A DNA stretch of 64,000 nucleotides from Cetorhinus maximus (lineage: Eukaryota). Made by a program: the position numbers and the translations under genes. Under the pieces are notes generated by a model that did not search any database, was not told the DNA's origin, and saw only the letters and a list, made by a program, of their open reading frames with translations. Location: positions 47,678,001-47,742,000 of the forward strand of contig NC_135902.1 in the NCBI RefSeq assembly GCF_964194155.1, given 5' to 3'. Positions 39,831-61,014 of this stretch are shown in pieces. Numbering within the stretch: position 1 is the stretch's first letter; the number at the start of each line of letters is the position of its first letter.

Positions 39831-39911
39831 GACTCTCAGCCAGTGTTTCCGAGTTGCCTGTGAAGACAGACAGCAGCCCCCTCCACAACAGAGCTTTACC
39901 TGACCTCTCAC

Positions 39912-40469: not shown

Positions 40470-40608
40470 TAAAAGCACAAAAAACTGCGGATGCTGGGAA
40501 ATCTGAAACAAAAACAAAAATAGCTGGAAAAACTCTGACAGGTCTGACAGCATCTGTGGAGAGGAACACAGTTAACGTTTCCAGTCCCTATGACTCTTCA
40601 TCAGAATA
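40470..40608 (-). mobile_element. Penelope pLTR-derived insertion
   Basis: 13-bp TSD AAGAG(T/C)TAGGGGA at 40457-40469 and 40609-40621. Confidence 0.85.
40570..40606 (-). ncRNA. Minimal type I hammerhead ribozyme motif
   Basis: TT-CTGATGA-A-GAGTC-ATAGG-GACTG-GAAAC-GTT-AACT; intact core, one stem II mismatch. Confidence 0.6.
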
Positions 40609-40624
40609 AAGAGCTAGGGGAGGG

Positions 40625-40937
40625 GATGGTGTCGCTGGACCTCTGAGTAATACCCTGGGGACCTGGGTTTGAATCCAGCCACAGCAGATGGTGGAATCTG
40701 AATTCAGTAAAAATCTGGAATTAAAACTATTGCCGATTGTTGTAAAAACCCATCTGGTTCACTAATGTCCTTCAGGGAAGGAAATCTGCCGTCCTTACCT
40801 GGTCTGGCCTACATGTGACTCCAGACCCACCGCAATGTGGCTGACTCTCAAATGCCCTCTGAACAAGGGCAATTAGAGGATGGGCAATAAATGCTGGCCT
40901 AACCAGTGACACCCACGTCCCATGAATTAAAAAAAAG
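40625..40937 (+). mobile_element. Second-family tRNA-derived SINE
   Basis: gggtttgaatcc B box; tail gatgggcaataaatgctggcc...catgaattaaaaaaa. Confidence 0.8.
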
Positions 40938-41799
40938 ACACTGGCTTAAAGAGTGGCTTGTCTTTTACTGTCGAGAGACTTGAGCACAAAATCCAGGCTG
41001 ACACTCCCTGCGCCCGTGCCCAGAGAGCGCTGCACTGTCGGAGGTGCCACCTTTCTGATGAGACAGCCTAATCAAAGCCCTGAATGCTCTCCACGGTGGA
41101 CGCAAACTATCTCAGTGGTCAGACTTATCAATAATCTTCAAAATCAAAAGATTTGTTATAAAAATCATGAGTTGTTATTATGTTAAGCCTTGCCAACATA
41201 GATTGATAGTTGTTTTATAAATTTCCATTGTGGTTTATTTAATCCCTAACAGGTCCAGGTCCTTTACAAAAGCTATATTACTGCATTTGAAAATGCTTTA
41301 CGAAGGACACTTTAAAAATCCTACCAGCTATCACCGCGTTGTGATGCATCTCAGTATAAGGTTCCTGTGAGAATGACTGGGATGACAGCTGGACAAAAGT
41401 GATCATATTTCATTTTATAAAGTTTCCTTTTCTTTTATAGTTCAGTTCTTTATTGGGTGAGCCCTTCTAGAGAAAGAGGGAACTTTGAGAGGAATGCCTC
41501 TTTGTTTTTTTTTTGCAAAAGGAAAGCAACAAAAAAGGGTCTTGCACCACACAGTATTTGCCCTTTATGAATTGTAAAGTAGGAGGGGGTAGTGCATTGA
41601 GACAAAACCGAGCAGAGTTGTTTCCCCCCTCTATTGAGTAGCTATTGCTGATTGGTCAGTTCAGATGTAAGCCGAGGCATTATGATGCCAGGATATTAGC
41701 ATCCCAATATTTATAAAAATATCAGGAGATCTTGGGTGAAGCTTATCTTAGATGTCACCGTGAGAGTTGGCATGTTTGCTTTGCACTATTTTGCAGAAC

Positions 41800-42390
41800 A
41801 GGGGAAGGGTTAGCTGTCATATGCTGGTCAACATTAATCCTTCAATCAACATCATAAGATTATCTGATCATTAGCACGTTGCTGCTTTTAGAACATAGGA
41901 ACAAGAGTAGGTCAATTAAGCCCTCAAACCTGTTTCAGCATTCAATGAGGTCATGACTGATCTATAATCAAAATTCATGTCATCCCATATCCCTTAATGA
42001 ATTAGGTTAGCAAAAGTCTATTATTCTAATATTTAAAATTAGCAGTTGATGTAACATCAATTGTTATTTGTGGAAGAGTTCCAAACTTTTCCTTCCCTTT
42101 GTGTGTAGAAGTATTTCCTAATTTCACTCCTGAAAAGGTCTAACTCTAATTTTTCGACTATACCCCTGAGTCCTGTACTCCCCACCTAATGGAAACACTT
42201 TCTATCTGCCCTATTTGTTCCCCTTAATATGTTGAACACCCAACTCAAATCACCCATTATGGGATTTTCTTGTGAGCAAACTGGCTGCTGCATTTTCTAC
42301 AGTACAACTACACTTCGAAAGTGCTTAATGGGCTGAGATGCACTTTGGAAGATCCTGAAATTGTGAAAGGGTGCTAGATAAATGCAGGTC
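41800..42390. mobile_element. Deu-domain SINE (+) interrupted by a CR1 3' fragment (-, ~41890-42260)
   Basis: SINE ...ttgctgctt resumes as tgggattttcttgtgagcaaactggctgc. Confidence 0.7.
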
Positions 42391-42499
42391 TTCATTCCCT
42401 TGATTGATATGTTGCGTACAATCCTGTAGCATTTTTTTCTATAAAAGGTAAGGTCGTTTGCCCTGTAACTCACTGTACGTGTATACTAAACTTATACAG

Positions 42500-42830
42500 T
42501 TAAGTTACAGGATGTAACGGCTGCAACAAGCCAACATGCCCAGCACCGAGGCACTAATCGCTCAAAACCAGTTCCGCTGGACAGGACCTGCCGATCAAAT
42601 GCCTGACACCAGACTCTCGAACCAACTGCGCTACTCAGAACTTGGTCACAGCACGAGACTCCCAGGAGGACAGCTTTAGGGATGTCCTCAAAGCATCACT
42701 GAAGAGGTCAAACATCCCCGATGACTCATTGGAGTCCCTGTCCTGTGACTGACCTAAATGGAGAAGGCTCATTTGGGAACACATTAAGGGACTTTGTTGG
42801 GAATACGCAGAGGTGAAGTTGAGTAAAAAT
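42500..42830 (+). mobile_element. RTE-clade LINE 3' fragment
   Basis: MPDTRLSNQLRYSELGH...PGGQ...FRDVLKASLKRSNI...D*PKWR resembles the RTE/BovB C-terminus. Confidence 0.75.
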
Positions 42831-43417
42831 TATTATGACCATTTTGTTGCATAAAGCATTAAAGGAGTTCTGCCTTTTCTGAGGTAACCTTAAAAGTATA
42901 ACATATATAGACAGATATATAGGAGATAGACAGATTTTTAATTAGTAACGGGTTGAAAGGTTATGGGGAGAGGGCAGGAAATTGGAGTTGAGGCTGAAAT
43001 GAGATCAGCCATGATTGTATTGAATGGCGGGGCAGGCTCGAGGGGCTGGATTGCCTACTCCTGCTCCTAGTTCTTATGTTCTTATATGTACATACACTAA
43101 TAGACCTCTCACACAGATAGTCAATGGCGCAGTTAGAGAGCTAAACACGGGTATTGCTGAGAAGAAAACCAGTATGGGGTGACTAACTCAACAGGAGTAT
43201 CTTAAAATATGTCTTTACATTTTATAATTCATCCTAAGCAGTTGCAGTAACTACATTTATTTTATTAATGTTTATGCTTATGATTCAAAAATAAGCATTG
43301 CTCATATAACCAAATCCTGGAAGGTTTGTATTATTGTTCAGGTTCGGAGGGACGTCCTGAATAAAAAAAACCCAAGTTAAGCTTGTATATTTAATTAAGA
43401 GACGAGAGAAACTGGGA

Positions 43418-43529
43418 CAAAAACAAAAATACCTGGAAAAACTCAGCAGGTCTGGCAGCATCTGCGGAGAGGAACACAGTTAACGTTTTGAGTCCGTATG
43501 ACTCTTCAACAGAACAGGACTCTTCAACT
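43418..43529 (-). mobile_element. Penelope pLTR-derived insertion (core CTGTTGA...AAAAC)
   Basis: Perfect 13-bp TSD AGAGAAACTGGGA at 43405-43417 and 43530-43542, inserted into a CR1. Confidence 0.85.
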
Positions 43530-43950
43530 AGAGAAACTGGGATTGTTCTCCTTAGAGCAGAGAAGATTAAGGGGAGATTTGACAGAGAGGTTCAAATCAT
43601 GAATTGCTTTCATAAGAGTAAATAAGGAGAAACTGCTTCCAGTGGCAAAGGGTGAGTAACCAGAGGACACAGATTTAAGATAATTGGCAAAAAAAATCCA
43701 GGGGGAATTGATGAGAATTTTTTTATGCAATGAGTTATCTGGGCTGCATTGCCTGAAACAATGGCAGAGGCAGATTCAGTAATCAAAAGGGATTTGGATA
43801 TACATATGTACTTGAAAAGGAGATATTTTCAGGGCTGTGTGGAAAGAATAGAGGAAAAGAACTAATTGGATAACTGTTCAAAGAACTGGTACAAACATGA
43901 TGGGCTGAATGGTCTCCTTCTGTCCTGCATGATGCTATTCTATGATTCAA
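43530..43950 (+). mobile_element. CR1 3' fragment
   Basis: LEKLGLFSLEQRRLRGDL and 3' UTR with ttctatgatt tail. Confidence 0.85.
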
Positions 43951-43956
43951 TGACCT

Positions 43957-44030
43957 ATACATATATACAAATATATTTATGTATATCTAATATATACATA
44001 TATTGTATGCATATATATATATATATAAAT
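43957..44030. repeat. Imperfect (TA)n
   Basis: atatatatatatatataaat and flanking TA-rich sequence. Confidence 0.85.
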
Positions 44031-44563
44031 GTTTTGCAATGAGTGTGAATTCATTATGATGCACAAACATCAAACTCTGTTACAGAGTCAAAACAATTAC
44101 TTAAAAACCAATTCAAGCAGCCAGGCCATGGTAGAAGCTAAAATAATTGTATTAATGTAACAGTTGAGTGTTGGGAAATCATCTGCAGCAGTTCTGCTGA
44201 ATGATTTTGTGGGCAAAGCAAATACTTTAATCTGCATGTTTCTTAGTTCACAGAATGTTCTGTAGCAAAGATAACAATGCATTTTTCAAAGTTTCGGTAA
44301 AAAAAGAGGTCATGTTGGAGACAGGCTGACTGGACATTAGCATCTCAGAAGCTTTTCTTTAATCTCTCCAGGCTGAAAGGATGTATACCATCACTGCATT
44401 GCTTCAAAACCTAGACTTCACCAGATAACCAAATATAGCTAAGTTAAAATGTGCAGGATATATTTATACATTATGTATAATAGTGAAATAGAATTCGTGT
44501 TTTAAATATAAATGTTGTTGACAAACAGGCAATTGAAGGGTCCTAGTTCTCATTCAAGCCCAT

Positions 44564-45199
44564 GGCCTGAATTTTTAGATCGACGGGCAGACATGATCAG
44601 CGGGCGTGGGATTGGCCGGGAATAGGGACCGCTGACTGTGATTGGCCCCCGATTACAATTTCACGCTGGCTGACCAATTAGAGGCCAGCCAGCGTGAAGC
44701 ATGCGCTGAAAAGCTCAGCGCTGCCAGAGTGGGGGCAGGAGGAGGGTGGGCGATGACATCAACACAGGTGTGGGCGAACGCTGAGAGAAAGCTCCCTCAA
44801 CGCAGAGAGCTGCCTCAGGGAGCTGCAGACCCGAAAATGTTCCAATAAAGTTTTAAAAAGCAAGAAAAAAATGATCGAGCATCACAATCAGGCACCTGAA
44901 AATATAGATGATAAAAACGCCCACAGATTTCTATTCTTATTTTATTTCATCGCGGAAACCTCATCCCGCCCTTGGATGAGGTTTGATGGAAAATGTAAAG
45001 GCCGCCTGGCCGATTCGCCCGTCCACCAACCGTAAGGTTGGACGGGCAATGGAAAACAGCAGACAATTGCACCGTTGTTGGGCTTAATTGTCAGCGGGCG
45101 CACTTCTGACTTTTGCACGTGCCTGCCAAGTGAAGTCAGGACACTCGCCAGACACCATCGCGCGCCATTTCACGCCCGATCAACATAAAAATCCAGCCC
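44564..45199. mobile_element. PIF/Harbinger-like MITE (~640 bp), inverted relative to the 17.1 kb copy
   Basis: TIRs GGCCTGAATTTTTA / TAAAAATCCAGCCC; 3-bp TSD CAT. Confidence 0.85.
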
Positions 45200-45999
45200 C
45201 ATGTCTTTGACCAAGCTTTTGGTCACCTTTTGGTCCTGATATCTCTTTATATGGCTAGGCGTTACACTTGAGTTGAAAACTCACCTAACACCTTAGATAC
45301 TTACAGTATTAAAGGTGCTATATAAGCACAGGTTGTTAATGTTACTGTGTCTTCTGATTGCACACTGTTCTAATCCAATCTAACATACCAAAATCCATTG
45401 ACCAATTTGTATATGCATGTCTATGAGTAGGACATTGTAAATGCTGTGTGTAAAACAGTGCATCTCCGGAATTAGCGATGTTTGCCTTGGCTCATTCCCA
45501 TTAAGACGTAATTAGAGGCAGGTTCTGGAACATCAACATGAAAGGTTTGCTGCTGATGCTGAAAATATGCAGCAGGACAATCAGTGTCTGAAAAGGGGAA
45601 ATGCACGTTTGGGAGGAACTGAACCAAAAATAAAAAGGACACCCCAGACCCCTTACAGCATTGACGAAAAGAAGGAGCAGAGAAAAACTAGTCGCTGAGA
45701 AAACCGACTCCAGCAAATACACAGCCACAAACAAGGTTAGAAAAGGGGAAGAACACACAGTGGAATGGACGAAAGACAAAAATCCAGACAAAAAGAGAGA
45801 AACACTGATATATCTGGATGGATGGAAGAGCAATAAAATCAAATCAAATAGGAAATAAGAAGAAAGAAATAAAACTGCAAAGGATGAAAACCTGATGTAG
45901 AAACAGAAAATTGCATTGAATTATATTGAACATACCGCACATAAATAAACCACTCAGCCCAATTGGCCTAGTGAAATTTATGTTTCATGTGAGCCTCCT

Positions 46000-46205
46000 T
46001 GACCCCTCTTCATTTGAAACTATCAACGTAACCTTCTATTTCTTTCTCCCTCCCTCATTTTTCTTTCTAACTTCCCCTGAATGCATGGGAAAGAGAAAAG
46101 AGAGTTCTGATGCAATGTCTTCAACCTGAAACGTTAACTTCATTTCTTCCTCTACAGGTGCTGTCTGACCTGCCGAGTATTTTCAGTCTCTTCTGTTTTT
46201 ATTCA
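46000..46205 (+). mobile_element. Older Penelope pLTR fragment with degenerate hammerhead
   Basis: AGTT-CTGATGC...GAAAC-GTT-AACT at 46103-46139, followed by pLTR tail. Confidence 0.7.
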
Positions 46206-46574
46206 AAACATCCTACTAATGCAGATGGTGGCCCTTTGTCGGCGCTGGAAAAGAGAAGGCTTAAATGAAACAAAGAGGCAAAAGAAGAATGACATGTGCC
46301 GTCAGAGCAAGTTTTGGCGAAACCAAACCCTAGTGTATGCAGCCATTTAAAGACGTCAAGCTTTGCCTATTCTGGATTTGCCTAACATGGGTACGGGTGG
46401 GATGTAGACTGGCTGTGCATTGTGTTATAGAGCAGCAAGTTCAGTTCACCATTACAGTGTCGAATATCCCACGTTGATAAGCCCTCCCAAATCCAAAACC
46501 ATTGCATTCCTGTCTTCTTCAGGTGGAAAGCCCAATCTGAAACCGGCTACACAATTTGTTAAGCAATAAATCTA

Positions 46575-46880
46575 GACCCATCTTTTTGTTTACTTGTCCC
46601 GTAATCACTCCATTTTGCCTTGCACCATCACCCCCTTCGTCATCTAATTTCTCCTGCCTTCTATCCCGTAACAGACCTTTGCCTTTTGTTCTTCCGCCCT
46701 CCCCTCTTTCCCCGCCTCTGAACTTGCTCAAAAGCAGTCATGTCTCTTAACTCTTACCGGCTCCAATGAAAGGCTATTGACCTGAAATATTAACTGTTTC
46801 CCTCGCCACAGATAATGCCTGACCTGCTGCGTCTTTCCAGCCTCTGTGTTTTTATTTAAGGTATCTCCAATATCCAGCGG
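46575..46880 (+). mobile_element. Penelope pLTR fragment (older subfamily)
   Basis: Pyrimidine-rich pLTR body, ...attgacctgaaatattaactgtttc...gacctgctg tail. Confidence 0.7.
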
Positions 46881-47419
46881 CTACAAGGCTTCTCTGTAAA
46901 ATTACTCTTGATGCATCGATAGGAAAAAGCTGCCCTAACTGACTACCCTGTTCAAGGCAGTTAATAGATGAGTGGGAATGGAAAATATTGTTCAAATGGA
47001 GTGGCTGGTGTTTAGTTGGGGGTTTGCACTCAGACATATTTTTCCAGTAGAGCAGAGAGTGCTTTAGTCTGCATCTAATCATGCTATACTTGACCAGCAT
47101 TATTAACCTTAATGTAAATGCTTGAATCAGATATAGGTCACCTGAAACGCTGTGGTCCATTCTCTAGCATTAAAATACATTCACAAAAAAAAAACTTCAT
47201 GAAATAGACTATTGCCTGAGTGAAACTGAATGCTTTTAAAAATTCACAATCAAGGGATAAATTAGTACAGAAACGTAAATTACAAACTTTGCCACAAGGA
47301 GTGCTGGCTTCCTCTGATGAATGCTGAACTTCTTAATGCTGCTTAGACTGTTTTTGCAATGAAAGACAAGCACTCAAGTTTACCATAAGGTGGAAGAAAT
47401 TCACCATAACAATTCCAGT

Positions 47420-48310
47420 GTCAGCTTAATGCAAAGGTCGTTATTTTGGCATTGAATCACAAAGTTGTGGATTTAAACTCTATCCCAAGACTTGGGCACA
47501 TAAATCTAGACTTACATTTCAGTGCAATACTGACAGAGTTGCACTATCAGAGTGGGTGCAGTCTTATACATAACACAGCCAAGCAAATGTACATCTACCT
47601 GTTCCAGTGGGGTTTTTTTTATTCATCGCTGGCTAGGCCAATATTTATTGCCCATCCTTAATTGCCCTTGAGCAGCTGGTGTCAAGCCACCTTCTTGAAC
47701 CGCTGCAGTGCATGTGGAGTTGGTACACCCACAGTGTTTTTAGGAAGGGAGTTCATTCCTTTTTAGACTTTCTAGCAGTTTGATACAACTTAGTGGCTTG
47801 CTAGGCCATTTCAGAGAGTGATTAAGAGTCAACCACATTGCTGTGGGTCTGGAGTCAAATGTAGGCCAGACCAGGTAGATTTCCTTCGTAAGTGAACCAG
47901 ATGGTTTTTTACAACAATGGTTTCATGGTCACCATTACTGGTACTAGTTTCTAATTCCAGATTTTTATTAATTGAATTTAAGTTCCACCAGCTGCTGTGG
48001 TGGGGTTTAAATTCATGTCCCCAGAGCATTGGGCTGGGCCCCTGGATTACTAGTCCAGTGACATGACCACTACCTCCCCCTTAAAAGACCTCAAAGTAGT
48101 AGCAGAGGAGCTCCCATGGTGTCCTAGCCAACATTTAACTGCCAAAATACTATAGGCAGCCTAATCATTCATCTGAATTCTATGGGGCCTTACTGTGTGC
48201 AAGTTGGCTGTGGTATTTGCATACATCGCAAAAGCGATGGCACTGCAGAGTCATTGATTGGTTGTGATATACTTTGGGACATCCTGAAAACGTGATAAGG
48301 GACATTATTT
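47420..48310. mobile_element. Deu-domain SINE (+) interrupted by second-family SINE and LINE tail (-, ~47625-48082)
   Basis: ...ctgttccagtgg resumes at aaaagacctc...gaggagctccc. Confidence 0.65.
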
Positions 48311-49569
48311 AAATACTTTCTTTCTTAGGCAACCAGCATTTTCACACAAGCAGAGTTTCACAGTAATGGGAAGAAAAGGCAACAAAAAAGGGACCTCGCA
48401 TTTCAGTGTTTCAAGTGTTTTCTGTTTTTGTTTCAGCCTCTCCAGCATTCGTTGTACTTGTTTCGAATGAACTTTCTGTTCTTCCCAGTTCTGACAAAAC
48501 ACCCAAAATGACAACTCTCTCCAAAGTTGCTGTCTCCTTTGCCCTGCTTACAGCACTTTCAATTTTACTTTCATTACAACAGGATAACCAGTTTTTCCTG
48601 CATCTGATAATAATTGGATGCATCGCAAAGTGTAAGATAGAAACATGAGGCAATATGCACCTTTTATTTTTGGTACACAGTGTTGACAAATGTTATTGTT
48701 ATTCCAGGATAAATTGACGTTAATTTATAATTACAGGCTTTATGTTTCCCCCCCCCCCAAAATGGCATTAAACAGTTTGTACTCTATTGCTTTTAAATGA
48801 GACTTCATTGCAGTGTTGTCATGCTATACGCTGTGCTACATGTTATTTAATAATGACACTTTGATCTTAGTTCAGGTTTCAAGGCACTAAATCTGAGCAA
48901 ATGTAGATTTAAAATGTACTCATGCATCTACACGCAGAAGCCATATTCTGCCCAGAAAATGAGAGTCAGGGGAGCTTTCCAGCATTTGAAAGTATTCAGT
49001 AGATGCTATTATCAGGCCTAGCTGGATATATATTTCTGCTTCAGTCTCCCTAATGCGTCAGTAAAACTTGCTGATTCCACTGAAATAGTACAAAGAGCGT
49101 CCTTTTATCACTTCCCCTGGCTGAAATTCAAACCTATTAAAAACAACAGCCAAGTGATCCACACGTTCCATCTTTCTCCCAAAGAAAATCTCTACCATTT
49201 AAACATTGGACTTAAATCCTGAGATATACATTCAAAGCAGCCTTGTAAAGCAGAACAGCCCGAGGTTTAATTTCATGAGGTAACTCAAGCTACTTTCGTA
49301 CACAATTAGTTGCTGCTAGTGATTTGGCTTTTTGTTTAAAAATGTAAACTTCTGTTATGTGACAAATAAGCTCCTGCTTGCATCAACCCTATGCCTTGCC
49401 TGGTATCCAGGCACATGCCTATGACGTCACAGTTAGTCCAATATGGACTTAGCAACATCCCAAAAATAAAGATCAAGTCAGACAAAGATAAGGTCAATCA
49501 CATTTCATAATTGAGAACATTTTGCTGCTTCACTTTAAAGGTGAACTGCATTTTGTTGCAGAGGAGGTA

Positions 49570-50350
49570 TGTGAATGAGATGAAGAGGGCACTTTCAAAG
49601 GGGCAGCAGAAGCATGATAGGCCAAATGGCCTCCCTCTGCACTACAAAATATTACAACATTACTTCATAATAATGCTGTTATTTTAGATTCAACTGTTAA
49701 GGTGTTACCGCAATTAAAAGTAACAACGCAGGTTAATAAGGCCACAAAAAGTAAACAAAGCACTGGGTTCATTTCTAGATGGATAGAATTTAAAAGCAGA
49801 GAAGTTAAGTTAAAATTGCATCGAACCTCGATTAGAGCACACATGCAGTACTGTGAACAATTCTGGTCTCCAAGGTTATAAAAAGTAAATATAGAGGCAT
49901 TGAATAGGTACAAAAAAATTACTAGAATGATAATAGAACTGAGAGGTTATACCTAACAGGAAAGATTGAATAAGGTGGGCTATTTTTTGTAGAAAAGAGA
50001 AGACTGGGGCTGACCTGATAGAGATCTTCAAGATTATGAATGGCTCTGACAGGGTAGAACGTTCGATAAGGCCAGAACCTGGGGGGATTAAAAACAAGAC
50101 AGTTACGAATAAACTGAATAGAGGATTCAGGAGAAACTTCTTTATCCAGAGAATGGTGAGAATGTGGAGTTTGTTACCACTGGATGTGGTTGAGGTGAAC
50201 AAAATAGGTGCATTTAAAGGGAAGCTGGATAAACACACAAGAGAGAAAGAAACAGTTGTGGGTCTATGAAGAGGGATGGGAGGAAGCTCCATATGGAAGA
50301 TAAACACCAGCAAGGACCTGATGGGTCAAATGACCTGTTTCTGTGCTTTA
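49570..50350 (+). mobile_element. CR1 3' fragments
   Basis: QYCEQFWSP, FRRNFFIQRMVRMWSLLP, AFKGKLDK. Confidence 0.85.
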
Positions 50351-51019
50351 ATTACCTGGCAATGCCATACACAAAGATCACAGCAACTAAAACTTAAACC
50401 ACTTTAAGGCAAGTATGTTAACCTCCAAAATGGTGAGCTGTAATGTTCACGCAAACAGAGCACCAGGGTTTAAATTTCTGTGCTAATATTTCTAGGCCAT
50501 TTTTGCACTACGGACAAAGATATGACAAATCTTTGAATTTTAAATTAGCTGGGGCCACTGTACAGTAGGTAGAACATACCCTCTCCTTTCCCTTTACTTT
50601 GGTACCACCTACCACTCATTTCCCTGTCATCACACATTTGCGTCCAATAGAAAACCTTAGATTAGATTTTGCTTTTCTGCCCTGTCCCTCACAGAAACCA
50701 AAAATAAAAATAATAACGCCCCCCCAATATAATAAATAGTAGTGCCAGGTGCTGTAACAACTATGTCACTTTCTATAATAACATTGAACCCACTGTCCAG
50801 CACACACACACACATATCCCTGATATTCCCTGCGAAGACAGTTTAAGAATGCTTGCAAGTTATCAACTAAAAGGGACCGATTGTATGTGAACTTTAACAA
50901 TGAGCCAACATTCCAGGCGAGATGAGGTGCAGTCTTCCTTCAGGCATTTGTAGGCCATTCTTTTTGCATAGAGACTGTCACAAACCAATAATCGTAATAA
51001 TAATAAAGGTGTTGCTTCT

Positions 51020-51916
51020 TCAAGGCTCTGCAATGTAACGAATCTTCTGTGAGTAGATCAGGTCGACAATGTACAGAATGAGGTTGATGTAGGTGAAGAT
51101 AGCGATGATCAGCTGGCTATCCCAGGGGCAGTCCCCCATTGAGCAACTCGCTGGCCTGTCCATTGAGCCATACTTGTTGTCAAAGCAGAAGATGGGCCAG
51201 ATGACCGCGGCGCTCAGGTACATCAGGGTGGCCAGGAAGGTGTAGAGGACCACCACCCTGTCGAAGGGGCACCTCAGCATGCCAGTTCTCCCGGAGACGT
51301 TGAGGGCAATGACCAGGGCGGTGAGGATGAAGCAGATGGAGTAGACCACCACACACCACTGGGTGGCTGTGTAGCGACTGTACTGGCTGCCATTCAGCAG
51401 GGCTCCGAAGATGATGCAGGCTACATAAGCCTGGACCACCTTGAGGAGCCCCGAGGTGGTGGCCATGTAGGCACCGATGTGGCCCGGTTTGGCCCGGGTC
51501 AGGTGGATCTCCACGGCGTAGGCGATGCAGGCGACAGCCGAGGAGGCGGTGGCCGAAATCCTGAAGTTCCTGGACTGACAGTCCTGGCAGTCCAGCTCCA
51601 CGAAGTAGACGGGGTAGATGACCGTGGCCGTCACGTACATGAGGGTGGCCAGCATGGCGAAGGAGATGGTGAAGTTGTCCCAGGAGATGGTCAGGCAGCT
51701 GTGCAGCCGGGTGAACTCGAAGGAGAGGATCAGGGCGCTGAGGGCCAGGCAGAAGCACCAGGCGAACATGCAGAAGTGGCCGTAAGCGGCGCCGAAACCC
51801 CCGTCGTGAGCGACCAGGCTCAGGGTGACACATCCGAACAGAGTCTGCAGACAGCGGAGGGCACCCAGCGGAGACAGCAGGGCAGAGCTGTTCAGATAGG
51901 GACCCGCCGTCTCCAT
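51020..51916 (-). CDS. MYADML2: Myeloid-associated differentiation marker-like 2 (two MARVEL domains), single coding exon, 298 aa
   Basis: METAGPYL...FEFTRLHSCLTISWDNFT...YMATTSGLLKVVQAYVACIIFGAL...CPWDSQL...YSQKIRYIAEP* closely matches recalled MYADML2; syntenic with PYCR1. Confidence 0.95.
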   Translation of the reverse strand: METAGPYLNSSALLSPLGALRCLQTLFGCVTLSLVAHDGGFGAAYGHFCMFAWCFCLALSALILSFEFTRLHSCLTISWDNFTISFAMLATLMYVTATVIYPVYFVELDCQDCQSRNFRISATASSAVACIAYAVEIHLTRAKPGHIGAYMATTSGLLKVVQAYVACIIFGALLNGSQYSRYTATQWCVVVYSICFILTALVIALNVSGRTGMLRCPFDRVVVLYTFLATLMYLSAAVIWPIFCFDNKYGSMDRPASCSMGDCPWDSQLIIAIFTYINLILYIVDLIYSQKIRYIAEP

Positions 51917-51923
51917 AATCCGC

Positions 51924-52250
51924 NNNNNNNNNNNNNNNNNNNNNNNNNNNNNNNNNNNNNNNNNNNNNNNNNNNNNNNNNNNNNNNNNNNNNNNNNNNNN
52001 NNNNNNNNNNNNNNNNNNNNNNNNNNNNNNNNNNNNNNNNNNNNNNNNNNNNNNNNNNNNNNNNNNNNNNNNNNNNNNNNNNNNNNNNNNNNNNNNNNNN
52101 NNNNNNNNNNNNNNNNNNNNNNNNNNNNNNNNNNNNNNNNNNNNNNNNNNNNNNNNNNNNNNNNNNNNNNNNNNNNNNNNNNNNNNNNNNNNNNNNNNNN
52201 NNNNNNNNNNNNNNNNNNNNNNNNNNNNNNNNNNNNNNNNNNNNNNNNNN
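51924..52250. other. Assembly gap (N run)
   Basis: Ns. Confidence 1.
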
Positions 52251-53072
52251 CCCCCCCCACACACATCCCCCCCCGCACTCACACCCCCCCCCACACCCCC
52301 CCACACACACCACCCCCCACACACACCCCCCACACACACCCCCCCCCCCCCCACACACACACCCCCACGCATATCCCCCCCCACTCACACCCCCCCCACA
52401 CCCCCCCACACATACCCCCCCCCCACACACATACCTCCCCCACACACATCCCCCCCCCACTCACACCCCCCCCACACCCCCCCACNNNNNNNNNNNNNNN
52501 NNNNNNNNNNNNNNNNNNNNNNNNNNNNNNNNNNNNNNNNNNNNNNNNNNNNNNNNNNNNNNNNNNNNNNNNNNNNNNNNNNNNNNNNNNNNNNNNNNNN
52601 NNNNNNNNNNNNNNNNNNNNNNNNNNNNNNNNNNNNNNNNNNNNNNNNNNNNNNNNNNNNNNNNNNNNNNNNNNNNNNNNNNNNNNNNNNNNNNNNNNNN
52701 NNNNNNNNNNNNNNNNNNNNNNNNNNNNNNNNNNNNNNNNNNNNNNNNNNNNNNNNNNNNNNNNNNNNNNNNNNNNNNNNNNACACCCCCCCATACCCCC
52801 CCACGCACCTCCCCACACACACACCCACCCCCAAACACCCCCCCACACACACCCACACACCCCCCCACACACACCCACCCACACACACACCCACACCCCC
52901 CAAACACACCCCTCCCACACACCCACACCCCCCCCCACACATACACCCCCCCCACACACACACCCCCCACACACACCCCCCACACACACACCACCCACAC
53001 CCCCCCCCACACACAACCCCCCACTCCCCCACACACACCCTCCCCCGCCCCACACACACACACACACCCCCC
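52251..53072. repeat. C/A-rich low-complexity tract containing a second gap (52486-52782)
   Basis: Mixed C-runs and (CA)n. Confidence 0.95.
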
Positions 53073-53225
53073 TTGATTTCACACTCCCCAATTTCAAACC
53101 CACCCCATTTTCACAGAATTTCAGACACACCCCCGACCTCAGGCACACCCACCCCAATTTCAGATTACCCCTGATTTCAGCCTCCCTGATTCCAAGCCAC
53201 CCAATTTCAGATCCCCTGACCAGAT

Positions 53226-53655
53226 CCCCCTGATTTCAGAGCTCACCCCCCCATGATTTCAGACCCCCCTGATTTCAGAGCTTACCCCTCATGATTTCAG
53301 AACCCCCTGATTTCAGAGCTCACCCCCCCCCATAATTTCAGATCCCCCTGATTTCAGAGCTCACCCCCCATGATTTTAGATCCCCCTGATTTCAGAGCTT
53401 CCCCAACCCATGATTTCAGATCCCCCTGATTTCAGAGCTCACCCCCCCATGATTTTAGATCCCCTGATTTCAGAGCTTCCCCAACCCATGATTTCAGATC
53501 CCCCTGATTTCAGAGCTTCTCCAACCCATGATTTCAGATCCCCCTGATTTCAGAGCTCACCCCCCCATGATTTTAGATCCCTGATTTCAGAGCTTCCCCA
53601 ACCCATGATTTCAGATCCCCCTGATTTCAGAGCTCACCACCCCCCCATGATTTTG
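53226..53655. repeat. Minisatellite, 11 units of ~38-40 bp
   Basis: Unit CCCCCTGATTTCAGAGCT(CACCCCCC/TCCCCAACCC)ATGATTT(C/T)AGAT. Confidence 0.95.
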
Positions 53656-53930
53656 TAAAAAAAATCTGAAGGCCGCTTGGCCTTTTCGCCTGCCCGCCAA
53701 CCGTAAGGTTGGACGGGCAGCGAAAAATTTAATTAAATTATTACTTTAATGGCCTTAATTGGCCTGTTAATTGTCAGCGGGCACGCTGCCAACTCTTGTG
53801 CCCGCCCGTCAACTGAAATATCGCACGAGTGGGTGGTGATGTCAGGACGCTCACCCGACATCATCGCGCGTCATTTTACGCTCATTGGGGTCGGGCGCGC
53901 GCCCGCCTGACGAGTGAAAAGCTCCGGCCC
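53656..53930. mobile_element. Half copy of Harbinger-like MITE
   Basis: ccaaccgtaaggttggacgggcag...gtgaaaagctccggccc; homologous to the right half of 44564-45199. Confidence 0.8.
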
Positions 53931-54059
53931 CTCTGGCCCTGGTCATTTCAGCAACATTGGAGAGGAAAGGGAAGCTGGAGATGGGGAAGTAATTTGCCAG
54001 GATAGAGAGATCACAAAATGCTTCTTTGAGAATTTTTGTTTTTATTCTTTGAAAGAGAT

Positions 54060-55128
54060 CCGGCCAGCAAACCTTTGCCAGCCACAGCTTTCTCTCCCAT
54101 GCCGCCCACAGAGCGACACCAGCCCCTCAGGAGCTTCACACTCCATGAGCTACGTGACGATTAAAGGCGTCGCACGTACACACGCTGACTCATGTACCTT
54201 ATCCCAGCATGGCCGACGCTCAGAGCACCCGGGACTCCCGGGAACAGGCTACTCCACAGCTCTCCGAGCAGGACCTGCACCAAGATGGAGGCATCTTAGG
54301 AACTCAGGGTCCACGTGGCCTCCCAGTTCCACCAAAGTAGCCTGGCTTAAGACCACAGGGGCGGTGAATGCCTTGGCACAGTGACTGAGAACCTGGACCC
54401 AGTGCCGTAAAAGCTTTAATGACCTTCTGCGCTATGGTAAGGTGAATGAGGCTCTCCTCTAACACATACAGCCTGGCCTTGCTGTGTGCAGCATGGCCGG
54501 CCTCGTGTCTACACTGTACACATGATGCTCGGCGATGAGGCAGCAGCAAACCTCCATGGCCGAGGGGAAACAATTTATGCTCATGGGAAATTGGGAGGAA
54601 ATTGGTGGAGAGAATGTGAGACCCCTTGCAGACGTCTCCAAGCCTCGATGAGACCGCACTTCACTCTTTCTATCTTTGCCTTTCAGGAGGAGAGAGCCCA
54701 CAATGTGAGGGGGATGCTGAGGACCGGGGTTGGGCCCCCCAAACCTGAAAAGGTGGGAAGGAAAGGGAGGGCACCTCCTTTGCCCTGTGCACATTGGGGG
54801 CACCATTCCCAAGATGGTACCCCCGTTTCTGCCTCCCATCCGTCCTCCAAAACCTGACCCCCCCCCCCACCCCCTCCCTATGGTCCACAATTCCTCCCCA
54901 TCCAAAACCCCTGGGATTCACTTTTGAGTCCACTTGCTACAATCTTTCTCTGGGACTGGGCGTAGTTCCAACAGTGACCACTACTGAGCTCTGGCGCTGC
55001 TGGGACTCAGACTGGCCGGCAGCTCTCCTGGGCAGGACCTCCTGTCCCTGAGGGATGGAAGCCCCACTCTCATCTCACTAAGGCTGCCCCCAGTGAGCAA
55101 AGCGCCTCCCCCGGGTAATATTCAGCCC
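54060..55128 (+). mobile_element. Harbinger derivative with decayed Myb/SANT-like ORF
   Basis: TKVAWLKTTGAVNALAQ*LRTWTQCRKSFNDLLRYGK; right end AATATTCAGCCC TIR-like. Confidence 0.65.
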
Positions 55129-55129
55129 C

Positions 55130-55460
55130 CCCTCCACCGTCTCTGAAATCTCCTCCAGTCCCACAACCCTTCAAGATGTGTGAACTGCTCCAATTTTGGT
55201 TTTGTACGTGTCCCTGATTTTCATAGCTCCACCCTTTAGCTGCTTAGGCCCTAAGATCCAGAATTTCCTGCCTGGGTCTCTCCACCTCTCAACTTTAAGA
55301 TGCTTCTTAAAACCTGTCTCTTTGACAAAGCTTTTGGTCACCTGCTCTAATATCTCCCCGTGTGGCTTGGTGTTAAACATTGTTTGATGATGCTCCAAGG
55401 AAGCACTTTGGGGATGTCTTACCAAATTACAGGTGCTATATAAATGCAAGTTGTTGTTTT
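55130..55460 (+). mobile_element. L2 3' fragment
   Basis: Tail ggtgctatataaatgcaagttgttgtt. Confidence 0.8.
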
Positions 55461-56009
55461 TGTAGGTGACCTTTTTTTTAACTGCTTCAGACAGATACAT
55501 AGTGCAGAAATGCGAGGAAAGTCTTTCCATTGCAAACTAAGAAACCAACACTGAATGTGGATAATTCCCACACACACTTATAATAGGTATGCAGTTGGCA
55601 AATCTGCTATAGGGAGATGCAGTGGTCACAATGAGGCTGGAGTGTAATGGCAGTCCAAGTATGTTAGGAATGGAGACTTGATTCCTTCCCTTAAAGGGTT
55701 GGAATTTCAATCTGTCCACCGCCATTTGCTCAGTTATCTGACAGTGGAACAATGGCTTTCCAACACTGGAAAAGAACACGAGTTCCACTAAATAGGCCAA
55801 ATCCATTCGATTTTTAGGGTGCGTTTACATCATAAATGCGACTTGATACAAAGCACAGCCACTTGCCGGTGCAGACACGATGGGCCAAATGGCCTCCTTC
55901 TGTGTTGTTAAAACTCTGTGATTCTGTGACTTTGTACCAATGCGACAGTTATTCAACAACGGCACCTTGACCACCCCGAGGCACTTCATAAAAGCTTTAA
56001 CAAACGTTT

Positions 56010-56105
56010 ATAAAAATAAAAATAGCTGGAAAAACGCAGCAGGTCTGACAGCATCTGCGGAGAGAAACACAGTTAACGTTTCAAGTCCGTATGACTCTTC
56101 ATCAG
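56010..56105 (-). mobile_element. Penelope pLTR-derived insertion within an L2 fragment
   Basis: Same pLTR tail as other copies; 5' end at the hammerhead CTGA. Confidence 0.8.
56071..56105 (-). ncRNA. Minimal hammerhead ribozyme core
   Basis: CTGATGA-A-GAGTC-ATACG-GACTT-GAAAC-GTT-AACT; 5' strand of stem I missing. Confidence 0.6.
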
Positions 56106-56950
56106 CATAATGTTAGCAAACATTATTTGACACCAAACCACAATTTAGGACAGGTGACCAAAAGCTTGGTCAAAGAGGTTTTAAGGAGCATCTTAGAGGA
56201 GGAGAGAGCGGTAGGGAGGCGGAGAGATTTAGGAAGGGAGTTCCCGATCTTAGGACCTGGATACCTGAAGGCACGGCTGTGGCAAGGAAATTGGAGATGC
56301 ACAGGAGACCAGAACTGGAGAAGCTCAATTCTCGGAAAGCTGTGGAGCAGTGGTGGGGGGTGGGGAGTGGTTTCAGAGATAGAGAGTGGCAAGGCCATCA
56401 TGCGATCAGATAGATATGGATGTTAAATTGCAGGACTGAGAGCCAGTGAGGGATGGACAGGACTAGGACACAGGCAGCAGAGTTTTGGTTGAGCTTGAGT
56501 GTAAAACAGCGTGTCAATGCAGTCAGAATTCAGTGTTAGGGCCGAAACTGATACTGGGACAAAACGAAGTGGAGGAGGGAGTTACACTCCATTTTGTTTT
56601 GGAATCAGATCAGGCCCCTACACCTGATATATGTTCCATCAATCGGAGTGATGCCATACCCACATTGCATTGACATTAAACTGGTGGTGTGAATGTGCTG
56701 TTGTGAGTCTCACTCGGAGGCTGGCAATGCCCGAGTCCTGGTTCATCTCCTTCAGCACAGGGGGTGGCAGCTAAAAAGAGGCCAGTCAGGCCACACAAAT
56801 TGGTAACATAGTGAATTACCAAACAGGTTTAATGATGGATACGCTCACCGTCACTGTAAAATACAGCCAGTTTTCAAAACCAGATCAAATAGCAGCCGTC
56901 CTGATACAGGTCTCTGAAAAATTAAACAAGCAAAACAGCTATTTCTCTTG

Positions 56951-57138
56951 GAAAAACTCAGCAGGTCTGGCAGCATCTGCGGAGAGGAACACAGTTAACG
57001 TTTCGAGTCCGAATCATTCGGACTCGAAACGTTAACTGTGTTCCTCTCCGCAGATGCTGCCAGACCTGCTGAGTTTTCCCAGGTATTTTTGTTTTTGTTT
57101 TGGATTTCCAGCATCCGCAGTTTTTTGCTTTTATCCAT
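56951..57138. mobile_element. Penelope insertion with 5' inversion forming a perfect palindrome
   Basis: Arms 56953-57014 and 57016-57077; perfect 12-bp TSD CTATTTCTCTTG at 56939-56950 and 57139-57150. Confidence 0.9.
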
Positions 57139-57663
57139 CTATTTCTCTTGCTGTGTATGGCTATTTTTTTTTTTCAGGCTTTTTAAGTGGCAAATGGCAG
57201 ACCGGCCTGAGCAGAACAATGATTCCGACAAGCTGCGATTGGTTTTGGAATTACAGACGTGTGTTTGCCAGCGGAGACAGTGTCTTGCCTCCGAGTTCAA
57301 TCGTGGCTCTGTGGCAACGAACCAGAAAACCAGGTACGTCCAATATGCTCCTTGCTCTGTTTGATACACAGCATTGTCATTGAGAGTCAACCTCAGGGGA
57401 GCCCCAGGCAGCTGCAGACACAAGGGACACCAGCTATTGCCAGGGGTCAGCAACGCCCAGCTCTGCAGCCTCCTGGGGCTCGTCAAGGGCTCATGTGCTG
57501 CTCACCAGCCTGATCGATTGTTTGGAGCTGGGAATTCTTTGCCAGAGGCTCACAGTAACTTGGCCTGTCCATCTTCAGATCTGATTGCCTGTGTCAGTTT
57601 TATGTCTCGAGCCTATGAGTTCACTAGTCGAGTAAACTCGAATTGCACACCTTCATATACACT

Positions 57664-57895
57664 TGTTAGTTGAAGCTCGCTATCAATAACAGAGAGAGAC
57701 CGACAGAAGAACAAACTGTGATTGTTTATTGCAGCGGAAGAAAGAGCACTAAATCCTTCTGTGATCCCACAACCGCCTCCAGCGCTAGACTTACAGTTAA
57801 CCAGGAGCACGCGCTGTACATTGATTGGTCAGTACTGTCACACGGTTAGTCCACTTGCATTCTCTTAAAGATACATGGCACTCCACTTTACCACG
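57664..57895 (-). mobile_element. Solo LTR related to the Gypsy 3' LTR at 39288-39513
   Basis: Reverse complement CGTGGTAAAGTGG...AAGAGAATG...GCTGGAGG...GTGCTCT...CAACTAACA is colinear with that LTR; contains CCAAT and AATAAA. Confidence 0.8.
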
Positions 57896-58443
57896 TTTAG
57901 CCAGTGTGTTCAGGTATGAATTTCATAAGAAGAGAGTTGAGAAGCCGACGGAACAATGAAAGTTTATAGTTTTGCTTGAAAATTAAAGCAGCAGCGTATT
58001 GTCCGGCTATTGAAGAACTCTCCAAAAAAAAAACCAAGATAAATCGCACTAAAAAGTAGGTTATTTCTTCATTTCCTATTTCTGGCAGCCAGACTTTTAT
58101 TTACGCACGTATAAATTTGCCTATTTCCTTTTTCAGCATTTATCTGTTTTTTAACATTCTAGCCGCTATAATGCATTTAATTTTATTTAATTTTTGCTTT
58201 AAAAATGATAACAATGGTATTACTTATAACAACTTTTAACACAATAAATAGATACCAAAATGCATGCAATGAAATCTCTTTTAGAGCAAAAGACATATTC
58301 ATATATTTAACTATATTGAGTAGCAGCATTGTGGCTCTGAAGGTATCGCTTGTTTGACTGAATTTTAAAAACAGCCCTTTGTGTTATTCAGGCTGGTGGT
58401 GACTCTTGAGCCAAACGAACCCACATATGAAGGACTATTAAAG

Positions 58444-58460
58444 AGCCACTAGAGGGCAGA
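58444..58460 (+). promoter_or_regulatory. CTCF motif
   Basis: GCCACTAGAGGGCAG matches the canonical core CCACYAGRKGGCRS. Confidence 0.6.
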
Positions 58461-58499
58461 CAAGGGCAGTCTGAGATTTCCTGATCTATCCTGATGTAA

Positions 58500-58680
58500 C
58501 TCTTTTCGAGTCAAAACAATAAACTAAATTAACAAAAACAAGGGAGAAATCAAGCACAGCCCCTAAGTCAGGTCAGCTGTAAAATCAAGGAAAAACTTTA
58601 AAGGAACCTTACAAACATCAAACTAAGATGTGATTAAAGGGGTCAACAAAACACCCCAGTCCCCGCGGTGCCCAGATGCA
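58500..58680 (-). mobile_element. Tx1/L1-like LINE 3' end
   Basis: WAPRGLGCFVDPFNHILV* followed by a T-rich 3' UTR. Confidence 0.5.
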
Positions 58681-59516
58681 GAGCCTGGTGATTTGTGCTG
58701 CTTGTTCCCAACACTTGAGTCCTTCCTCTCCTCAGACGCAAGTATCTGTGCACAATCTACAGCTCCATCTCCACCTTTTGCCTTCCTGATATTTTTTCAG
58801 GCAGGCTCAGAGAGTTAAACCCAGCTTGGTTGCTTTCGAGGCTGTAACTTTCCCTCAAAGATCTTAGGCTAGGCAATATGATTCGCGAAAAAATAAGAGC
58901 AATGGGCATAAAATACTCGATTCTGGTCGCGGGGGAATATTATGAAGTGAAACATTCACGTTTTTTAGTTGTTCTGGAATGTTCTGCAAACTAGTGCAGA
59001 GAAAGAAACTAATTCGACAGAAGGTAGAGGAATGTGGGCCTGGGACAGTTTCTGTGTGAGCCCTAAATGTGGATCAAAAAGACTTGAAGGCTATGAGTAT
59101 GAGTATGGGTACGTTTGGGTACGATACACGATAGTGCTGGTGTTCTGGTGCTTCACTCATAGTCACCCTTTGTGTAGGGTCGTGAACACTGAAAACCGGG
59201 GGGTTATTCACATGTGGCCCTCAGACCGTGGTCACTGATTGGGAACGAGACCCTGTCTGACCATTCTTTTTCCCCCTGTCCCCAGCCTAAACCAATGACT
59301 AGGTCCATTATAATGCTGACTCTTTCAATTAAATTTGTCCACTCAGCATAAGCCAGTGCGTACGTGAAAACAATTGCGACCTTTGTCCCGTGAGAGCATG
59401 TACCTTGCGCAAGCATCATCTTCAAATCGATAACCTTGACTTGGACTGCGTGCATTGTCATAAATCTGTAGACAGATTGTGTGATAGCGTCTCAGAGAGC
59501 TGTGAGCGAGTAACTA

Positions 59517-59945
59517 TGTCAGTTGTGGATCAGTGGGTACCATTGTCACTTCTGAGTTAGAAAGTTATGGGTTTGAGTCCCACTCCAGAGACTTGAGTTG
59601 TCACTCCAGCGCAGTACTGAAAGAGTGCTGCACTGTCAGAGGTGCCATCTTTCTGATGAGATGTTAACACTGAAGCCCTGTTAGGTGGATATAAAAGATC
59701 CCTGCCACTACTTCAAAGAAGAGCAGGGAAGCTCCACCTAATATCCTGGCCAATATTTATCCCTCGATCAACATGACTGAAAAAAAAAAACAGAATACCT
59801 GGGTCATTATCATATTGCTGTCTGTGAGATCTTGCTGTGCGCAAATTGGCTGCCGCGTTTCCTACATTACGACAGTAACTACTCTTCAAGAAGTACTTCC
59901 TTGGCTGTAAAGCGCTCTGGGATGTCCAGAGCTGCTTTATAACAG
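59517..59945 (+). mobile_element. Near full-length Deu-domain SINE
   Basis: tRNA-like head; Deu-like core ctgtgcgcaaattggctgccgcgtttcctacattacgacagt...ttggctgtaaagcgct. Confidence 0.85.
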
Positions 59946-60109
59946 CTGCTTCATGTTCCAGCCCTCTCATTGGACAAATAGATGTCGTCTCAAAGAGTCA
60001 GATGAGGGGGAACAAGGGTTGACTTGAGCTCCAGGCTGCAGGCCCACTAAAGCACCAGGTCACAGGAGGAAAACCCCAAATCGATGGAAAAAAAGAAAGT
60101 CTTGGACAA

Positions 60110-60455
60110 TCACAAACATGGCAGCCAATTTGCACACAGCAAGCTCCCACAAACAGGAACATGATAATGATCACATAGTCTCCATTGTGATGTCGATTGA
60201 GGGATAAATATTGACCAGGACATTGGGGATAACCCCCCTGCCCTTCTTCGAAAGAGGTACTGTGGGATTTTTATTTTACACCCACCTGAGAGGGTGGACA
60301 GGGCCTTGGCTTAACCTCAAATTGGAAAGGCTGCACCTCCGACAAGGCAGCACTCCCTCACTGGGTGTCAACCTTGGTTCTTGTGTTCAAGACCTGGAGT
60401 GAGGCTTGAACCTACAACCGCCGGACTCAGAGGGGAGGGTGTTATGCCAACCGAG
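60110..60455 (-). mobile_element. Deu-domain SINE
   Basis: Reverse complement of the same consensus. Confidence 0.8.
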
Positions 60456-60479
60456 CTACTCCAACAGATAGAAGGGTGT

Positions 60480-61014
60480 AAAACAAAAATAAAAATACCT
60501 GGAAAAACTCAACAGGTCTGACAGCATCTGCGGAGAGGAACGCAGTTAATGTTTCGAGTCCATATGACTCTTCAACAGAACTAAGGAAAAATAGAAAAGA
60601 GGTGAAATATAAGCTGGTTTAAGGCGTGGGGGGACAAGTAGAGCTGGATAGAGGGCCAGTGATAGGTGGAGATAACCAAAAGATGTCATAGACAAAAGAA
60701 CAAAGAGGTGTTGAAGGTGGTGATATTATCTAAGGAATGTGCTAATTAAAGGTAGAAAGCAGGACAAGCAAGGGACAGATAGCCCTAGTGGGGGTGGGGT
60801 GAAGGGAAAGAATCGAAATAGGCTAAAAGGTAGAGATAAAACAATGGATGGAAATACATTTAAAAATAATGGAAATAGGTGGAAAAGAAAAATCTATATA
60901 AATTATTGGGGGAGAAAAAGGGGGGGATCGGAAATGGGGTGTGGATGGAGGAGAGAGTTCATGATCTAAAATTGTTGAGCTCAATATTCAGTCCGGAAGG
61001 CTGTCAAGTGCTTA
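60480..61014 (-). mobile_element. Penelope-like element 3' end (ORF C-terminus plus pLTR with hammerhead)
   Basis: LST*QPSGLNIELNNFRS* resembles the GIY-YIG end motif 'TLxPxGLN'; AGTT-CTGTTGA-A-GAGTC-ATATG-GACTC-GAAAC-ATT-AACT at 60582-60544. Confidence 0.85.

What the first reader, a model, noticed from the sequence alone, without database searches (positions are those of the whole stretch)
40470..61014. Dispersed Penelope-derived elements carrying a minimal hammerhead ribozyme
Seen: about a dozen related insertions (15250, ~16.8k, ~18.05k, ~20.04k, 35177, 40470, 43418, ~46.1k, ~46.7k, ~48.4k, 56010, 56951, 60480). The better copies give the consensus AGTT-CTGA(T/A)GA-A-GAGTC-ATACG-GACTC-GAAAC-GTT-AACT. 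This reads as stem I (AGTT/AACT), the CUGANGA core, a 5-bp stem II, GAAA and a loopless palindromic stem III (ACGU) with a GUU cleavage triplet. The longest copy joins this to a Penelope GIY-YIG C-terminus. Established: Penelope-like pLTRs carry minimal type I hammerheads thought to cleave as dimers. Inference: ribozyme motifs are very dense in this genome. The class is known; this family may not be characterised.
Basis: partly seen in the sequence, partly recalled or inferred. Interest (0 to 1): 0.7.

Follow-up and report, generated by a model that had tools for sequence, protein, structure and literature searches.

The report
Penelope stubs, core-altered hammerhead lineage
These are short inserted ends of a very abundant Penelope-type jumping gene carrying a known kind of small hammerhead RNA motif; its younger lineages replaced a normally fixed core letter (A to U, then C) yet kept spreading, so the motif is likely a slowed cutter that the element mostly copies uncut.

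Summary
Observation mostly confirmed: 11 of 13 listed places are stubs of one Penelope-like element (RT, Neptune-type Cys linker, GIY-YIG); none of 12 profile hits carries an intact motif. Genome-wide, 7,499 of 35,544 exact-pattern motifs have A6; a further 7,905 are almost all C6. Trees with the motif masked give a ladder A6 (oldest), U6, C6 (youngest); full-length U6 elements exist, one with an intact 917-aa ORF. After U6, 0 of 14 other core/palindrome sites changed (background 21%, p about 0.04) and stem II gained a compensatory pair. Insertion 5' ends pile up at the first bases of stem I, about 30 nt below a TATA-like box, not at the cut site, so stubs likely copy uncut RNA from its start. 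Best reading: slowed but fold-constrained ribozyme, cleavage not needed before copying; activity untested. The class is published; I found no paper on this variant (Lunse 2017 not readable). This scan noted the A6U/A6C lineage and shared stub start before, on other DNA of this and other genomes.

The parts
60480..61015 (-). Longest copy: last 18 codons of the ORF, whole non-coding pLTR, U6 hammerhead motif, partial tail
   Evidence: 93-94% to 29 genomic copies; tblastn to P0001
60959..61015 (-). ORF C-terminal 18 codons (after the GIY-YIG domain) and stop; one in-frame stop in this copy
60605..60611 (-). TATA-like box (TATATTT; TATAAAT in the oldest subfamily), 29 nt upstream of stem I; inferred promoter element
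60579..60584 (-). Initiator-like TTAGTT; A at 60582 is the first base of stem I and the inferred transcription start
   Evidence: 5'-end pile-up; consensus of Inr recalled
60544..60582 (-). Minimal hammerhead motif, U6 at 60575, G16.2A breaks the palindrome; predicted cut between 60548 and 60547
43417..43529 (-). Stub with U6 motif (43478-43516), G12A; 16-nt flanking direct repeat
40472..40606 (-). Stub with A6U7 motif, C11.1G mismatch, 13-nt flanking direct repeat; about 0.5 kb upstream of a PYCR first coding exon
56010..56105 (-). Stub starting at C3, A6U7 core intact, stem I 5' strand absent
56949..57133 (.). Head-to-head inverted pair of tail stubs joined in loop II, no core; 15-nt flanking direct repeat
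35191..35327 (+). Stub of the oldest (A6A7) subfamily, palindrome and stem I damaged
15255..15349 (+). Stub of the A6A7 subfamily, 8-nt deletion in stem II, 17-nt flanking direct repeat
46102..46230 (+). Decayed stub resembling an older family with shorter loop II
46767..46873 (+). Decayed stub resembling the older family (stem II AGGTC/GACCT type)
18040..18109 (-). Tail fragment without core
20032..20083 (+). Tail fragment without core

Best explanation
The copies are damaged stubs of the pseudo-LTR of one abundant Penelope-like retroelement whose younger lineages carry U6 or C6 instead of A6 in a minimal hammerhead motif; the motif likely sits at the very start of the element's RNA, is likely a slowed but still fold-constrained ribozyme, and most stubs were likely copied from uncut RNA. 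Shown: Penelope ORF and tandem pLTR layout, the A6-U6-C6 succession on the amplifying lineage, pairing-preserving stem changes, 5' ends piled at stem I, flanking direct repeats. Inferred: TATA/initiator promoter with start at the first base of stem I; reverse transcription primed in the tail or ORF start and running to the RNA 5' end to give about 130-nt stubs; weak residual cleavage (as a dimer, perhaps protein- or Mn2+-assisted) as the reason the fold is kept.
For: ORF with RT motifs, C-x4-C-x2-C linker and GIY-YIG; full-length pLTR-ORF-pLTR copies of 3.28-3.29 kb period. Exact counts U6 4,423 vs A6 1,710 for one 34-mer; A6 7,499 and C6 6,042 of 35,544; 7,905 more with C6 in 98 of the first 100 rows. 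Tree of 126 copies with the motif masked: ladder AA, AT, TT-GUU, TT-GUC, CT/CC; ORF-only tree of 19 candidates agrees (L328 is chimeric). Tail divergence 8.2, 5.4, 4.4, 4.4, 1.4-2.1, 1.6, 0.6% along the ladder (last group n=3). 12 of 19 full-length candidates have U6/C6 in both pLTRs; L345 has an intact 917-aa ORF. An older family keeps A6 in 91 of 100 rows. After U6, 0 of 14 other core/palindrome sites and 0 of 8 stem I sites changed in majority sequences vs 95 of 447 background sites (Fisher p=0.038); stem II U-A to C-G double change in 82 of 100 rows, old pair 17, U-G 1, C-A 0. 86 of 486 5' ends fall at -36..-31 vs 34 at -60..-37 (p=4e-34) and 11 at -4..+2. A6C cuts >10,000-fold slower in Mg2+ than Mn2+ (PMC7151607); CUGA mutants low in a saturation screen (PMC9901934); hammerhead mutants did not affect insertion in vitro for an anole Penelope (PMC11167929).
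Against: No activity or RNA end was measured. The conservation test is marginal (p about 0.04; about 0.1 against the 14 of 91 tail background) and the motif lies just downstream of the inferred start, so promoter constraint could explain it. The GUU-to-GUC gain reverted to GUU in the youngest group. In the untargeted subset the pile-up is modest: 8 of 51 ends at -36..-31, 3 at -60..-37, 14 at -30..-7 (p=0.004), and 3 of the 8 are window copies. Copies starting at the cut site outnumber offset controls 92:31:31 genome-wide; 62 of the 92 look like internal deletions or fold-backs from their four flanking letters, leaving about 30 vs about 21 and 15, so some in-vivo cutting is neither shown nor excluded. 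Exact patterns favour young copies: in the untargeted sample A6 is the majority (18 A, 5 C, 2 U, 1 G of 26 readable). D. virilis Penelope has a TATA-less internal promoter with its start upstream of an intron (PMC2377424).
Confidence: 0.62

Rival explanations
1. The U6/C6 motif is catalytically dead; the sequence is kept because it doubles as downstream promoter, protein-binding hairpin or template signal.
For: A6 changes cripple hammerheads; U6 is predicted to lock the core into a rod-like hairpin, -9.2 vs -6.8 kcal/mol for the open core; no 5'-end pile-up at the cut site in 486 ends; Naiad PLEs thrive without hammerheads (PMC8557442).
Against: Unpaired core bases, the ACGU palindrome with its CpG, and stem I all stayed fixed while loop II changed freely and stem II covaried; the rod fold is not predicted for the C6 groups; natural A6C is slow, not dead.
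Confidence: 0.22
2. U6/C6 cores are fully functional in vivo through help from the element protein or Mn2+, and cleavage is an essential, timed step.
For: Anole PLE hammerhead cleaves only with protein; A6C works with Mn2+; raw 3-fold excess of copies starting at the cut site.
Against: Most stubs contain the uncut motif up to stem I; the cut-site excess largely dissolves on inspection and involves under 100 exact matches; hammerhead mutants did not reduce insertion in vitro.
Confidence: 0.1
3. The 5'-end pile-up marks a 3' splice acceptor (pyrimidine tract + YAG ending inside stem I), as for the D. virilis intron, not a transcription start.
For: The sequence reads as pyrimidine tract + TAG/CAG at -36..-34; in D. 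virilis the intron end maps to the 5' end of helix I (PMC4209133).
Against: No shared upstream exon among the listed ends; several head-to-head pairs join arm to arm at -35/-34 with 0-4 extra letters; ends spread over -36..-31; TATAAAT sits 31 nt upstream in the oldest subfamily.
Confidence: 0.12

Closest known systems
Minimal hammerheads (min-HHR) of metazoan Penelope-like elements (Cervera and De la Pena 2014, PMC4209133; main text read to the references, text-held supplement searched)
   Same: Type I, 4-bp stem I, extra nucleotide between 9 and 10.1, G10.1-C11.1, palindromic 15.2-16.2 without loop III, in both pLTRs about 3 kb apart, mostly dispersed single copies, inverted pairs
   Different: Position 6 is U or C in the younger lineages; the paper's text reports U3-A8 as core variant, no A6 change and no shark (figures not seen)
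Neptune-clade EN+ PLEs (PMC8557442, passages)
   Same: Single ORF RT + Cys Zn-finger-like linker + C-terminal GIY-YIG; pLTR, tail, inverted 5'-truncated partner
   Different: Clade assigned by linker motif only; no RT tree with references; TATA-like box present
Poseidon PLE of Anolis carolinensis, PAc (PMC11167929, main text parts 1-2)
   Same: Hammerhead near RNA 5' region; copying from uncut RNA; internal priming near ORF start would explain stubs
   Different: In PAc the ORF starts inside stem II; here the main ATG lies about 140 nt downstream; different clade; canonical core there
Phage Bcep176 A6C hammerhead (PMC3088659 passages; PMC7151607 results, discussion, methods)
   Same: Natural change at position 6
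   Different: Single phage motif, versus tens of thousands of copies and a U6 stage in a minimal dimer-type motif
Non-LTR retrozymes (bioRxiv 10.64898/2026.07.22.740005, part 1 and passages)
   Same: Non-coding hammerhead-bearing PLE derivatives
   Different: Window copies are dispersed single stubs or inverted pairs with flanking direct repeats, not tandem arrays

Membership tests
EN+ Penelope-like element | Single ORF with RT and C-terminal GIY-YIG | tested here: met
   917-aa ORF in L345: RVT_1 E=3.6e-07; GIY-YIG E=0.0016, below Pfam cut-off but motif LVYCIRC..YIG visible
EN+ Penelope-like element | Tandem pLTR-ORF-pLTR layout, optional tail, inverted 5'-truncated partner | tested here: met
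   window pair 56949-57133
EN+ Penelope-like element | RT groups with telomerase/PLE RTs in a tree | not tested
   No reference RTs held; PDB sequence search gave 0 hits at E<=0.1
Neptune clade | CX2-5CxxC linker between RT and EN | tested here: met
   C-x4-C-x2-C in P0001; definition; shared with Nematis, so not exclusive
PLE minimal type I hammerhead | Stem I, stem II, extra nucleotide 9/10.1, G10.1-C11.1, palindromic loopless stem III | tested here: met
   Subfamily majority motifs; damaged in each window copy
PLE minimal type I hammerhead | Canonical core C3 U4 G5 A6 N7 G8 A9 / G12 A13 A14 | tested here: not met
   Met by AA, AT and the older family; not met by U6/C6 lineages, 28,045 of 35,544 plus about 7,900 motifs, incl. 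window copies 43418 and 60480
PLE minimal type I hammerhead | Covariation in stem II | tested here: met
   10.1-11.1 G-C vs A-U and 10.2-11.2 A-U vs G-C between families; U-A to C-G within the C6 lineage
PLE minimal type I hammerhead | Covariation in stem I | tested here: inconclusive
   Only one-sided changes: C-A mismatch in the AA group, A-to-G wobble in some GUC copies
PLE minimal type I hammerhead | Self-cleavage at H17 as a dimer | not testable with these tools
   Indirect genomic test inconclusive
Non-LTR retrozyme | Tandem array of motif-bearing units | tested here: not met
   No tandem repeat overlaps a window copy; copies dispersed

The most novel reading that the evidence does not exclude
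A vertebrate retroelement lineage traded the invariant A6 of its 5'-terminal hammerhead for U and then C while selection kept the fold, producing a conditional (protein- or Mn2+-gated) ribozyme placed at the transcription start that removes the capped first 35 nt only late or rarely; the dated subfamilies form a natural allelic series for asking why Penelope elements keep hammerheads.
Probability: 0.25. Interest if true: 0.75.

Novelty: new variant of a known kind. Interest (0 to 1): 0.47.

Why it matters
The role of hammerheads in endonuclease-bearing Penelope elements is stated to be unclear (PMC8557442), and in vitro insertion did not need cleavage (PMC11167929). A lineage that amplified to tens of thousands of copies after losing A6, with dated A6, U6 and C6 alleles and an intact-ORF member, makes that question testable with a handful of 39-nt RNAs. 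The window's own copies are ordinary decayed stubs.

Tried and rejected
Rfam scan: no hammerhead family matched; the miRNA-precursor hits at 56952-57079 are the inverted pair, below gathering scores. Active-5'/dead-3' pLTR division of labour: rejected, 12 of 19 full-length candidates have U6/C6 in both pLTRs and none has A6 upstream with U6 downstream; L065 and L070, which looked so, are separate insertions. U6 as neutral decay of A6 copies: rejected by the masked tree and by 2 U in 100 rows of the older family. A6U selected to remove an upstream AUG in the core: rejected, the AA group lacks it and younger groups regained an AUG in loop II. Splice acceptor before the tail ATG: rejected, its AG is lost in young groups. 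Pile-up of 5' ends at the cut site: none locally; genome-wide test inconclusive because flanks could not be fetched. RNA evidence: 24 runs listed, all contigs; four guessed-RNA runs laid on L318 cover the element but cannot show starts, strand or level. PDB search with the ORF: 0 hits. Lunse et al. 2017 could not be read; figures and one supplement file of PMC4209133 were not seen, so a published A6 variant there is not excluded. Literature searches for an A6U/A6C PLE hammerhead or a shark case listed none. Rows dropped before counts: 24 of 510 ends under 85% identity; 19 unclassified of 442 copies; 3 unanchored junction copies.
Full report
Observation. A refined motif+tail profile gives 12 hits at E<1e-8 and none in the reversed window, confirming 11 of 13 listed places; ~16.8k and ~48.4k are not significant. 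The copies at 43418 and 60480 read CTGTTGA, with U at hammerhead position 6. Four stubs have 13-17-nt flanking direct repeats reached by at most 1 of 200 random controls; five others tested do not stand out. Rfam has no matching hammerhead model. In 58 arbitrarily placed 10-kb stretches there are 55 hits and 0 in the reversed control, so the family is dense everywhere and the window is about twice average.

What it is. The window lies in a 3.99-Gb genome; that it is a cartilaginous fish is my recall of such repeats and the wording of earlier notes, not a call result. Relatives of the 60480 copy are 93-94% identical and extend upstream into an ORF with RT motifs, a C-x4-C-x2-C linker and GIY-YIG. 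Full-length pLTR-ORF-pLTR units have a period of 3.28-3.29 kb; 757 places hold the tail-to-ORF junction pattern. L345 has an intact 917-aa ORF. The linker fits the Neptune (or Nematis) definition; no RT tree was made. Motif anatomy matches the published PLE min-HHR in every respect but position 6.

Position 6. One exact 34-mer occurs 4,423 times with U6 and 1,710 times with A6. A degenerate pattern has 35,544 matches, 7,499 with A6 and 6,042 with C6; the first 100 rows hold 65 U, 21 A, 12 C, 2 G. A non-overlapping pattern adds 7,905 matches, with C6 in 98 of the first 100 rows. An older family (245 matches) keeps A6 in 91 of 100 rows. Exact patterns favour young copies; in the untargeted sample 18 of 26 readable cores are A6. 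A tree of 126 copies with the motif masked gives a ladder from A6A7 through A6U7, U6 (GUU), U6 (GUC) to C6; an ORF-only tree of 19 full-length candidates agrees, and tail divergence falls from 8.2% to under 2% along it. So U6 was fixed on the amplifying lineage; 12 of the 19 candidates have U6/C6 in both pLTRs.

Is the fold still constrained? After U6, majority sequences changed at 0 of 14 other core and palindrome sites and 0 of 8 stem I sites, at 3 of 5 loop II sites and at 95 of 447 other non-coding pLTR sites (Fisher p=0.038 for the 14; weaker against the tail alone, 14 of 91). Stem II changes keep pairing: A-U to G-U, in some to G-C, and U-A to C-G in 82 of 100 rows with 1 wobble intermediate and 0 mismatches. 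Stem I shows no double change. Published data say A6 changes slow hammerheads strongly, with Mn2+ rescue for A6C; I found no direct number for A6U. U6 is also predicted to fold the core into a rod-like hairpin.

Where the RNA starts. With the cut site as 0 and stem I starting at -35, 86 of 486 insertion 5' ends lie at -36..-31, 34 at -60..-37, 54 at -30..-7 and 11 at -4..+2. Both of the first two bins contain the whole motif, so pattern targeting does not explain the peak; in the untargeted subset it is 8 vs 3 vs 14 of 51. A TATA-like box lies 29-31 nt upstream (TATAAAT in the oldest group) and the peak sits on an initiator-like TYAGTT (consensus motifs recalled). I infer that transcription starts at stem I and that stubs are cDNAs run to the 5' end of uncut RNA, in line with internal priming and cleavage-independent insertion shown for the anole element. 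D. virilis Penelope differs (TATA-less), and a splice acceptor reading remains a rival.

In-vivo cutting. Genome-wide patterns gave 92 at the site, 31 at +3 and 31 at -3. From the four flanking letters alone, 31 of the 92 match a fold-back through stem I, 17 an internal deletion and 14 an inverted tail, leaving about 30 against about 21 and 15 after like filtering by eye. This is inconclusive; I could not fetch flanks and did not check the reported rRNA fusions.

Known and new. PLE hammerheads are published. Searches listed no A6U/A6C PLE motif and no shark case, but Lunse 2017 and the figures of PMC4209133 were not seen. This scan had already noted the A6U/A6C lineage and the shared stub start on other DNA of this and other genomes; I reached those readings before the look-up and tested them here. 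Papers seen: PMC4209133 (main text parts 1-3, supplement search), PMC11167929 (parts 1-2), PMC7151607 (parts 1-2), bioRxiv 2026.07.22.740005 (part 1, passages), PMC8557442, PMC3088659, PMC2377424, PMC6155905, PMC9901934, PMC6765202 (passages).

Verdict. The window copies are ordinary decayed stubs of a known class; the family is a core-variant of the PLE min-HHR with a dated allelic series, which makes an open question testable. New variant of a known kind; interest 0.47.

Noticed in passing
window 39910-39978 (-): First coding exon of a pyrroline-5-carboxylate reductase (PYCR1/2-like, E=4e-8); the 40470 stub lies about 0.5 kb upstream on the same strand, next to the GC-rich promoter region.
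   Followed up: partly
pLTR position -66..-62 (window 60609-60613 equivalent); L287, L291, L354, L280, L339: Second pile-up of 5' ends (25 of 486) at the TATA-like AT-rich box, nearly all in U6/C6 groups; the upstream neighbour is often the ORF start of another copy, as if new cDNA were inserted into the element's own pLTR at this site.
   Followed up: partly
G000, 31 of 92 rows: Junctions that look like fold-backs using stem I complementarity (inverted arm ending at the first base of stem I, then continuing after the cut site); a possible route to the inverted pairs.
   Followed up: no
L067, L061, L160, L119; window 60525-60527 (-): A 30-32-codon upstream ORF starts in the tail and stops, in frame, 9 codons before the main ATG; it is cut to 10 codons in younger groups.
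   Followed up: partly
window 53221-53653: Tandem array of about 39/79-nt units, 88-90% matches, next to CA/C-rich arrays and N stretches at 51924-53070.
   Followed up: no
window 37420-38742 (+): Fragments reading like LTR-retrotransposon RNase H and integrase (identification from recalled motifs); described only.
   Followed up: no
window 9877-10293 (+) and repeat families D7, D12, D17-D19: Many decayed LINE 3' ends, CR1-like by recalled motifs.
   Followed up: no
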